Assembly: GCF_988242995.1 (NCBI RefSeq)
Contig: NZ_OZ547043.1
DNA length: 64,000 bases
Strand: one strand, 5' to 3'
Below, piece by piece: positions 1-3,000 of the stretch; within the stretch, counting starts at the first letter, position 1, and every line of letters starts with the position of its first letter. A program made the position numbers.

Positions 1-3000
1 CCTGAAAAAGTGGACGCCGCTGAAGCCTGCAGCAAAATTTGTTGCTGTTCCGGTGACATATTCTGAACCAGGTCGAACAACCCACTACTGCCGCTAACGG
101 GCACGCCGTCATTGAGCTGCGCAAGCTGTGCATCACTGGGTGAGAAAACATGCCCTAACACCACTGTGATAAACGCACATAGCAACGATACCAACAGAAT
201 GGTCATAAATTGATTACGGAAGAAATTTCCGGTGTCACGGTATACGGACTGCGCCGTGATAGACATGCACTCTCCTTGAGTTTTATGCAGGTGTTAATTA
301 GCGGGCAATTGTACCCTGGTTAAGCCTCGGGTGGCAGCATCAGGTCTTGTATGGAAAAGCATATCTTTGTAAAGCGGAGGTAATTGCTGGCCTTCAGGCG
401 TGGGCAAACCGCGGCAAGTGGCGAACGAGTTAATATTTGCGTAGCGAAAATATTTAAAAATTGATTTAAATCACGTTAACCAGGATTCTCAATGCAACTT
501 CTAAATTAATCCAGATCAATAAAGGGTGAATTATCATATGTAATGTGATCTATGTAGGATCATTTGTTACTCCAATGTAGGTATATTCGTCACGTTTTTA
601 TAACCATAACGACGGAGCGGATATGAAAAAGTTAACAGTGGCGGCTTTGGCAGTAACAACTCTTCTCTCTGGCAGTGCCTTTGCGCATGAAGCAGGCGAA
701 TTTTTTATGCGTGCAGGTTCTGCAACCGTACGTCCAACAGAAGGTGCTGGTGGTACGTTAGGAAGTCTGGGTGGATTCAGCGTGACCAATAACACGCAAC
801 TGGGCCTGACGTTTACTTATATGGCGACCGATAACATTGGTGTGGAATTGCTGGCAGCGACGCCGTTCCGCCATAAAATCGGCACCCGGGCGACCGGCGA
901 TATTGCAACCGTTCATCATCTGCCGCCAACACTGATGGCGCAGTGGTATTTTGGTGATGCCAGCAGCAAATTCCGTCCTTACGTTGGGGCAGGTATTAAC
1001 TACACCACCTTCTTTGATAATGGATTTAACGATCATGGCAAAGAGGCGGGGCTTTCCGATCTCAGTCTGAAAGATTCCTGGGGAGCTGCCGGGCAGGTGG
1101 GGGTTGATTATCTGATTAACCGTGACTGGTTGGTTAACATGTCAGTGTGGTACATGGATATCGATACCACCGCCAATTATAAGCTGGGCGGTGCACAGCA
1201 ACACGATAGCGTACGCCTCGATCCGTGGGTGTTTATGTTCTCAGCAGGATATCGTTTTTAATTCCGCACAGAAACGACCCCGTAATATACGGGGTCAATA
1301 AGGACATGGTATAAAGGGTATTATTTCTTCGCTTCTACGCCATCAGTTTCAGAGCGAATTAAAAATTTCTCAGTTGTTTGCGGAATATGCTGAATCAGCC
1401 AGTCGGCCATTTCTTTTTCCTCATTTAAAATCGCTTCGATGGTTGGAATTGAAGCTGTATCACCGGCATTTTTTGCTGCTGCTAATAGTGAGGTGTAACA
1501 GGCGATTTCAAATTGCTCGAAGACATATCCGCTAATAGAGCCTTTGACTATTTCATCAGAAGGGAATATACCACCGATTGACTGCCCAAGCGCAGCCATT
1601 TTACTCATGGAATCTTTAATGACTGAACGTGAAATGTCATTACGATCAAGAATAGTTTCCAGTTGAACAATCTGGTTTTTGGTTTCACTAAGATGTTGTT
1701 CAATACGAGCGCGTAGTTCAGGATAATTATCTATACGACTGGCCATGGATTCAAGCATAGATTCGGCTTGCTTTTCCATTGCGTGGGCGTCACGTAACCA
1801 GTCATGATAATGTTCAATACGATTCATGAAAATGTCCTCTTTATAAAATGACTAAAAGTTAAAGTTCATATTTCAGGCTTTATTTTCGGCTTTCTTATTT
1901 ACGTTATTAAGTGCCAGATCAGTCAATTTGATGTCGGTGGCCTTTTCTTCTTCCAGGGTTTCTTTCAGAAGCTTCGCTGCTTTACGATAACCTAATTGTT
2001 CAGCCAGCGTTGCTAAGGTCCCGTAACTGGCGATCTCATAGTGCTCGACCTTCTGTGCAGCGGCAATCAGTGCGGCATCACGCACTTCGTTTTTCTCGGT
2101 GCTTTCGATGACCTCATTAGCTTCATCAATTAGACCTTCCATTGCCACACATTTCATGCGCTTAATTTTCAGGTTCGATTCGGACTCCACAACTTGATCA
2201 ATACGTTCAATCTGTCCATGAGTTTCCTCGAGGTGCGCATGAAAAGCCTGACTTAATTTTTCGTTTGATGTTGCTCTTGCGAGTTTTGCCAGTGCCCGGG
2301 TTAATTGTTTTTCTGCGCTGTAGGTATCTGAAAGCAGGTGAATAAATACATCTTCAATGGTCTTCATATTCATATTTTTCTCCAGTGAAATCACTGCGAG
2401 CCATACGGCCCGCAGATGCAATTATCTTTATCAGCTGATATTAATAATTAACGGTGAATCAGGATTTACCTGATTTATTACCACCGCTTTGTTGACCACC
2501 TTTTTTACCCGCTTCAGATGCGCGTTGCGGATCATTTTTAAAATTACCGCCGCTATGCTGACCGCCTTTACGGCCAGCGTCGGATGCCTTTTCACGGTCT
2601 TCGGCGAAATTTCCTGAACCACCACGATGTTCGGCCATGTTATTTCTCCCGTTGCGTTGCGTTGTTTCATTAATATGAGCGTTGTATGTCGACACTCATT
2701 AAAATTAGTCGCTAATGAAAATTAGTCAAATTAAGCGCAACGAGAAGAAAGAGGGAAAATATATTATGAGGAACATTCTGGATATATTAACAATTGCCTG
2801 AGGAATAAGTGACTTAGAGAAAATTATTGATTTTACTGGTGTTATGTTGCGGGATTAATTTGTTTGATTATATTACTGTTGGGCGGAAAAAAGACGTAAG
2901 TTGACGTTCGACAGGGGTAAGCGAAACGGTAAAAAGATAAATAATAAATGAATTTAGGATTTTTCCAGCTTCGTTAAAGAAAGTTAAAATGCCGCCAGCG

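What the first reader, a model, noticed from the sequence alone, without database searches (positions are those of the whole stretch)
461..474. Near-consensus FNR half-site pair upstream of ompW
TTGATttaaATCAc matches the FNR/CRP-family TTGAT-N4-ATCAA consensus at 13 of 14 positions, about 150 bp upstream of the ompW start. This is consistent with the known anaerobic regulation of ompW and serves as a positive control for reading regulatory sites here.
Basis: partly seen in the sequence, partly recalled or inferred. Interest (0 to 1): 0.2.

Follow-up and report, generated by a model that had tools for sequence, protein, structure and literature searches.

The report
Known FNR repressing site upstream of ompW
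The flagged 14-base motif is real and is the already published FNR (oxygen-sensor) binding site centred 126.5 bases upstream of the E. coli ompW transcription start.

Summary
Window 461-474 reads TTGATTTAAATCAC, which matches 9 of the 10 informative positions of TTGAT-N4-ATCAA. It lies in the 356-bp yciC/ompW intergenic region of an E. coli chromosome, 149 bp before the ompW ATG at 623.

A single match of this quality is not rare: the window has 4, against 2.9 expected by chance. But a second 9/10 site, TTAATCCAGATCAA, sits at 506-519. Two such sites occurred in only 0.03% of shuffles of the intergenic region. The other two window matches lie inside long ORFs.

Using the published transcription start (G, 29 nt before the ATG, window 594), the two sites centre at exactly -126.5 and -81.5. 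Myers 2013 (ChIP-seq) and Xiao 2016 (gel-shift, mutagenesis, lacZ fusions) describe these same 14-mers. The -81.5 site activates. Mutating or deleting the -126.5 site raises anaerobic expression 2-3 fold.

Among 79 other Enterobacteriaceae ompW loci, the -81.5 site is nearly universal. The full -126.5 palindrome is kept only in E. coli and Citrobacter, although its left half (AAATTGA) is at least 95% conserved.

Verdict: already known, low interest.

The parts
461..474 (.). Distal FNR site TTGATTTAAATCAC, -133..-120, centre -126.5. This is the flagged element. The literature shows it is the repressing, down-modulating site.
   Evidence: Sequence and coordinates. The identical 14-mer is published as the -126.5 site, with ChIP-seq, gel-shift, mutation and deletion data.
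506..519 (.). Proximal FNR site TTAATCCAGATCAA, centre -81.5.
   Evidence: Xiao 2016: mutating it lowers anaerobic expression about 3-fold, to the level of the fnr deletion strain. It has at most 2 mismatches in 80 of 82 sequences (the window, 2 E. coli records, 79 other Enterobacteriaceae loci), at a near-fixed distance from the ATG.
541..562 (.). CRP site (core TGTGATCTATGTAGGA), centre -42.5.
   Evidence: Coordinates. Published site. TGTGATCT and GGATCA are highly conserved.
568..583 (.). NarL site TACTCCAATGTAGGTA, centre -18.5.
   Evidence: Sequence read. Published site.
582..587 (+). -10 hexamer TATATT, at -12..-7.
   Evidence: Conserved at 95% or more across 81 sequences.
594..594 (+). 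ompW transcription start, a G 29 nt upstream of the ATG.
   Evidence: 5' RLM-RACE in Xiao 2016. Position checked in the window.
623..1261 (+). ompW coding sequence, 212 aa.
   Evidence: ORF. RefSeq annotation of the near-identical E. coli record.

Best explanation
The element is the distal of two FNR operators in the E. coli ompW promoter. When oxygen falls, dimeric [4Fe-4S]-FNR binds the proximal site (506-519, -81.5). It turns on the weak-(-35) ompW promoter (-10 TATATT at 582-587, start at 594), together with CRP at -42.5. FNR bound at the flagged site (461-474, -126.5) then reduces that activated transcription 2-3 fold and, with ArcA, gives a transient microaerobic expression peak.

Shown by published experiments: FNR occupies the region in vivo. 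FNR binds each site in vitro. Mutations at the two sites have opposite effects. The -81.5 mutation is epistatic to deletion of the -126.5 site.

Inferred, not shown: how the distal FNR represses. My preferred mechanism is anti-activation from a position too far upstream to activate. Upstream-bound FNR would hold or misplace an RNA polymerase alpha C-terminal domain, or stabilise a repressive ArcA/H-NS complex, as CRP does at -122.5 in synthetic tandem promoters.

Also inferred: the order of site filling. By consensus the distal site looks at least as good as the proximal one. Its mismatch is an outer base, whereas the proximal site has lost the core G.
For: The sequence is present and the pair is non-random. 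Taking the published start, every published coordinate is reproduced exactly in the window: -126.5, -81.5, CRP at -42.5, -10 at -12..-7.

Myers 2013 reports an FNR ChIP-seq peak at ompW, site at -126.5, in the category 'directly repressed'. Xiao 2016 quotes the identical 14-mer. The native promoter gives two shifted FNR complexes, each single mutant gives one, and the double mutant gives none. The -126.5 mutant is about 2x up and the deletion about 3x up. The -81.5 mutant falls to the fnr-deletion level. The deletion mutant loses the decline that normally follows the anaerobic shift.

Conservation: 7 of 8 diverse E. coli promoters keep the exact 14-mer. 13 Citrobacter species keep a 9/10 site at the same 45-bp offset, with different spacer bases and a different mismatch position. 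That pattern suggests selection on the consensus positions rather than mere recency.

Mechanistic precedent: CRP at -122.5 upstream of a -61.5 site represses through its AR1 surface contacting the alpha C-terminal domain. Upstream FNR at yfiD and CRP at -117.5 of guaB also repress.
Against: The repression mechanism is untested at this promoter, and at yfiD the alpha C-terminal domain is reported not to be involved.

Xiao's claim that the distal site is filled only after the proximal one rests on genetic epistasis. In vitro each single-site mutant still gave one shifted complex.

The full palindrome is absent from most Enterobacteriaceae, including E. albertii with 4 mismatches. The role is therefore not a conserved core feature of ompW control.

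Deleting 14 bp also shifts upstream DNA by 1.3 helical turns. Part of the 3-fold effect could come from other upstream elements.
Confidence: 0.9

Rival explanations
1. The site is the FNR operator that activates ompW anaerobically.
For: ompW is induced anaerobically in an FNR-dependent way, and the site is a 9/10 consensus match.
Against: The centre at -126.5 lies beyond the class I/II positions. Mutation or deletion raises expression 2-3 fold. Activation is lost only when the -81.5 site is mutated. Myers classifies it as repression.
Confidence: 0.04
2. The site serves the divergent yciC (yciCBA) promoter instead of, or in addition to, ompW.
For: The site lies in a shared divergent intergenic region, 201.5 bp from the yciC start codon at 266.
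Against: The only promoter-like match on the minus strand is at 337..308. That would put the site roughly 165 bp upstream of such a start. Myers assigns the peak to ompW only. Cross-genus conservation begins near window 432 and runs toward ompW, while the yciC-proximal part is not alignable between genera.
Confidence: 0.05
3. The site is bound by CRP, or is a CRP/FNR hybrid, because its right half ATCAC is the CRP-type GTGAT on the other strand.
For: In the CRP register, ATTGATTTAAATCACG matches 7 of 10 core positions. The mismatch to FNR is at the base that, by established knowledge, discriminates FNR (T) from CRP (G).
Against: The left half is the FNR-type TTGAT. FNR binding is shown in vivo and in vitro. 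Xiao's CRP gel-shift used only the -120..-3 fragment, so CRP at this site is untested.
Confidence: 0.05
4. It is a chance consensus match without function.
For: The window-wide count is at chance level (4 against 2.86). Fewer than half of high-scoring predicted FNR sites are occupied in vivo (63 of 187).
Against: A pair in one intergenic region occurred in 0.03% of shuffles. There is also ChIP-seq occupancy, gel-shift binding, mutant phenotypes and conservation in Citrobacter.
Confidence: 0.01

Closest known systems
E. coli K-12 ompW promoter FNR site at -126.5 (Myers et al. 2013; Xiao et al. 2016; RegulonDB entry as cited in PMC13058942)
   Same: The 14-mer is identical, and so are the distances to the start and the ATG and all neighbouring sites (-81.5 FNR, -42.5 CRP, -18.5 NarL, -10).
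   Different: The window is a different strain. The base just after the site (475) is G here and A in K-12 and the other E. coli promoters sampled. Nothing differs inside the site.
Tandem-FNR promoters tuned for microaerobic expression (yfiD, cydAB, focA-pflB)
   Same: There are two FNR sites. The downstream one activates and the upstream one lowers expression at full FNR activity, giving a microaerobic or transition-phase maximum.
   Different: At ompW both sites are unusually far upstream (-81.5 and -126.5, against -40.5 and -93.5 at yfiD, the latter positions from my own knowledge). ArcA and H-NS are also involved. The mechanism at ompW has not been dissected.
Synthetic CC(-122.5)CC(-61.5) tandem CRP promoter and guaB CRP at -117.5 (Lee and Busby 2012)
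   Same: A CRP/FNR-family dimer bound about 120 bp upstream represses a promoter that is activated by a proximal dimer.
   Different: The protein is CRP, not FNR. Dependence on the AR1 contact with the alpha C-terminal domain is shown there and only inferred here.

Membership tests
FNR operator (CRP/FNR-family DNA site) | Inverted repeat that matches TTGAT-N4-ATCAA | tested here: met
   9 of 10 specified positions at 461-474. The left flank AAAAA also fits the A-rich extended consensus.
FNR operator (CRP/FNR-family DNA site) | Lies in non-coding DNA upstream of a gene whose expression responds to FNR | tested here: met
   It lies in the yciC/ompW intergenic region 267-622. FNR dependence of ompW comes from the literature.
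FNR operator (CRP/FNR-family DNA site) | Occupied by FNR in vivo and in vitro, with binding lost on mutation | not testable with these tools
   Published: a ChIP-seq peak, and a gel-shift with FNR-D154A in which one complex is lost in the -126.5 mutant.
FNR operator (CRP/FNR-family DNA site) | Conserved in orthologous promoters | tested here: inconclusive
   The full site has at most 1 mismatch only in E. coli and 13 Citrobacter loci. 12 more loci have 2 mismatches and 54 of 82 have 3 or more. The left half TTGA[TC] is present in 80 of 82.
Class I / class II FNR-activating site | Centre near -41.5 (class II) or -61.5/-71.5/-82.5/-92.5 (class I) relative to the start | tested here: not met
   The centre is at -126.5, using the published start at window 594. 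The neighbouring site at -81.5 does fit a class I-type position.
Tandem-site FNR promoter with a down-modulating upstream site | Two FNR sites in one promoter | tested here: met
   461-474 and 506-519, centres 45 bp apart. A pair arose in 0.03% of shuffles.
Tandem-site FNR promoter with a down-modulating upstream site | Loss of the upstream site raises FNR-dependent expression | not testable with these tools
   Published: 2-fold up for the mutation and 3-fold up for the deletion. The post-shift decline is also lost.

The most novel reading that the evidence does not exclude
The flagged palindrome may be a lineage-specific completion of an older element. The left half with its A-tract (AAATTGA) is at least 95% conserved across 81 Enterobacteriaceae promoters, while the right half ATCAC is kept only in E. 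coli and Citrobacter. Two readings follow. The E. coli/Citrobacter lineage may have gained a full second FNR operator, and with it the microaerobic peak, on top of an ancestral half-site. Or AAATTGA may be recognised by a different, still unassigned factor in the other genera.
Probability: 0.3. Interest if true: 0.25.

Novelty: already known. Interest (0 to 1): 0.08.

Why it matters
It works as a positive control: a reader using sequence alone can spot a genuine, experimentally validated operator in this window. It also shows the limits of that approach. The consensus match gave the right protein but the wrong sign of regulation. The functionally dominant partner site 45 bp away, which carries a core-position mismatch, was overlooked. 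Nothing here opens a new question. The ompW promoter is among the best-annotated in E. coli, and a 2026 paper already uses it as a phylogenetic-footprinting benchmark.

Tried and rejected
- Window-wide enrichment of the consensus: not significant (4 matches against 2.86 expected). I replaced it with a local test on the intergenic region.
- Generic sigma-70 scan of 200-700: it did not find the real ompW promoter, which has a weak -35. It gave only one minus-strand match at 337..308, so it did not help place the site. The published 5' RACE start was used instead.
- A 60-bp megablast to count exact conservation across 5,426 E. coli genomes: only 4,174 genomes matched, because of the 28-base word requirement and flanking SNPs. 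It could not give a per-site count, so I aligned 7 further E. coli promoters taken from a ranking spread from 100% to 95% identity, with the window as the eighth.
- Position-weight-matrix scoring with the Myers matrix: not done, because the matrix is only in a figure or supplement. Consensus mismatch counts were used instead.
- yciC as the target and CRP as the binder: both considered and rated unlikely (see rivals).

Full report
**Observation**

Window 461-474 reads TTGATTTAAATCAC. It matches the FNR consensus TTGAT-N4-ATCAA at 9 of the 10 specified positions. The single mismatch is the outermost base of the right half-site.

The ORF at 623..1261 is ompW. The first 1,400 bases of the window match more than 5,400 complete E. 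coli genomes, where the genes are annotated yciC (minus strand, start at window 266), ompW, and yciE. The site ends 149 bp before the ompW ATG.

**Is it more than chance?**

Counted alone, no. The 64-kb window has 4 matches with at most one mismatch, against 2.86 expected, and 35 of 100 shuffles do as well.

The local picture is different:
- Two of the four matches, 461-474 and TTAATCCAGATCAA at 506-519, lie 45 bp apart in the same AT-rich (40% G+C) intergenic region.
- The other two matches fall inside long ORFs.
- In 20,000 dinucleotide-preserving shuffles of the intergenic region, at least one site appeared in 2.7% and at least two in 0.03%.
- Only 2 of 300 whole-window shuffles had any pair within 100 bp.

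**What it is**

The literature settles this.
- Xiao et al. 2016 (PMC4886647) mapped the ompW start by 5' RLM-RACE to a G 29 nt upstream of the ATG. In the window that is position 594, which is a G.
- With that start, 461-474 spans -133..-120 (centre -126.5) and 506-519 centres at -81.5.
- TATATT at 582-587 is the -10 hexamer at -12..-7, and TAATGTGATCTATGTAGGATCA at 541-562 centres at -42.5.
- These are exactly the published coordinates of the two FNR sites, the -10 and the CRP site. The paper quotes the same two 14-mers.
- Myers et al. 2013 (PMC3688515) found an FNR ChIP-seq peak at ompW. [quoted passage not shown]

**How it works**

Shown by Xiao et al.:
- FNR-D154A gives two shifted complexes on the native promoter, one on either single-site mutant, and none on the double mutant.
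- Mutating the -81.5 site lowers anaerobic PompW-lacZ about 3-fold, to the level of the fnr deletion strain.
- Mutating the -126.5 site raises expression about 2-fold, and deleting it raises expression about 3-fold.
- The double construct behaves like the -81.5 mutant.
- After a shift to anaerobiosis the native promoter peaks at about 10 minutes and then declines. The deletion of the -126.5 site removes the decline.
- ArcA adds FNR-dependent repression, and H-NS represses aerobically.

The flagged element is therefore the down-modulating operator of a tandem FNR promoter.

The physical mechanism of repression is not established. I infer anti-activation from a position too distant to activate. 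The closest precedent is the synthetic promoter CC(-122.5)CC(-61.5). There, upstream CRP represses through contact between its AR1 surface and the RNA polymerase alpha C-terminal domain. Upstream FNR at yfiD and CRP at -117.5 of guaB also repress. At yfiD, however, the alpha C-terminal domain is reported not to be involved.

I also note that the proposed order of occupancy (proximal first) rests on genetic epistasis. In vitro each single-site mutant still gave one shifted complex. By consensus the distal site is at least as good as the proximal one: its mismatch is an outer base, whereas the proximal site has lost the core G. This fits with Myers' pipeline reporting only one site, the -126.5 one, at this peak.

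**Related sequences**

I collected 80 ompW loci, one per species, from Enterobacteriaceae genomes. I examined the 260 bp upstream of each ATG in 82 sequences: the window, two E. coli records and 79 loci from other species.

The proximal site:
- 66 of 82 have at most 1 mismatch and 80 of 82 have at most 2.
- It sits at a nearly fixed distance from the ATG, with centre -107.5 to -112.5.

The distal site:
- A site with at most 1 mismatch at the 45-bp offset occurs only in E. coli and 13 Citrobacter loci. Those have different spacers and a different mismatch, for example TTGATCTGAATTAA and TTGATCTGTATCAG.
- 12 further loci have 2 mismatches: S. enterica arizonae, some Citrobacter, Escherichia sp. 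E1V33, Kosakonia, Phytobacter, and one Kluyvera.
- The remaining 54 have 3-6 mismatches. These include E. albertii (4), Klebsiella, Enterobacter and Raoultella.

The decay is one-sided. AAATTGA, the left half with its A-tract, is at least 95% conserved across 81 sequences, and TTGA[TC] is present at the expected offset in 80 of 82. The right-half bases C, A and C are conserved in only 10-20%.

Within E. coli, 7 of 8 promoters spanning 95-100% identity keep the exact 14-mer. One has CTGAT at the left end.

A 2026 paper already used this promoter as a phylogenetic-footprinting benchmark and recovered both FNR sites as conserved peaks (PMC13058942).

**Rivals**

- An activating role is contradicted by the position and the mutant phenotypes.
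- Control of the divergent yciC is unlikely. The site is 201.5 bp from its ATG, the only minus-strand promoter-like match is at 337..308, and cross-genus conservation runs toward ompW only.
- CRP binding is conceivable, at 7 of 10 core positions in the CRP register, because the right half is a CRP-type GTGAT on the other strand. It has not been tested, and FNR binding is demonstrated.
- A chance match is excluded by the published binding data. Even so, Myers' finding that only 63 of 187 high-scoring predicted sites are occupied in vivo shows that the motif alone would not have been proof.

**Verdict**

The interpretation has the right protein and gene but the wrong functional sign, and it is incomplete. 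Novelty: already known. Interest is low. The only mildly new point is the asymmetric conservation of the two half-sites across the family.

Noticed in passing
window 506-519: A second 9/10 FNR consensus site, TTAATCCAGATCAA, lies 45 bp downstream of the flagged one. It is the published activating site at -81.5 and is far better conserved across Enterobacteriaceae than the flagged site.
   Followed up: yes
window 458-474, and L003-L081 about 155 bp upstream of each ompW ATG: Conservation of the distal site is asymmetric. The left half AAATTGA is at least 95% conserved in 81 sequences, while the right half ATCAC is conserved only in E. coli and Citrobacter. Either one strong half-site suffices for FNR in other genera, or another factor reads AAATTGA.
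   Followed up: partly
window 294-383 (- strand): RefSeq (PGAP) annotates a 90-bp pseudogene fragment of a YkgJ-family cysteine-cluster protein, missing its N-terminus, between yciC and the ompW regulatory region in every E. coli record fetched.
   Followed up: no
window 475: The base immediately 3' of the FNR site is G in the window. It is A in K-12 and in the other six E. coli promoters sampled. In the wider genome searches, the hits listed at 100% identity for this stretch are O157:H7 and O145 strains.
   Followed up: no
window 432-460: Alignable cross-genus conservation (Escherichia, Citrobacter, Salmonella) starts abruptly near 432 (AATATTTGCGTAGCGAAAATAT.TAAAAA), about 30 bp upstream of the distal FNR site. 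No binding factor for this AT-rich block turned up in the papers I read. It may be an H-NS, IHF or Fis target.
   Followed up: no
window 10962-10975 and 43655-43668: The only other FNR-consensus matches with at most 1 mismatch in the window are TTGATGAAAAACAA and TTGATAGTAATAAA. Both lie inside long ORFs (218 aa and 1035 aa) and are most simply chance matches.
   Followed up: partly
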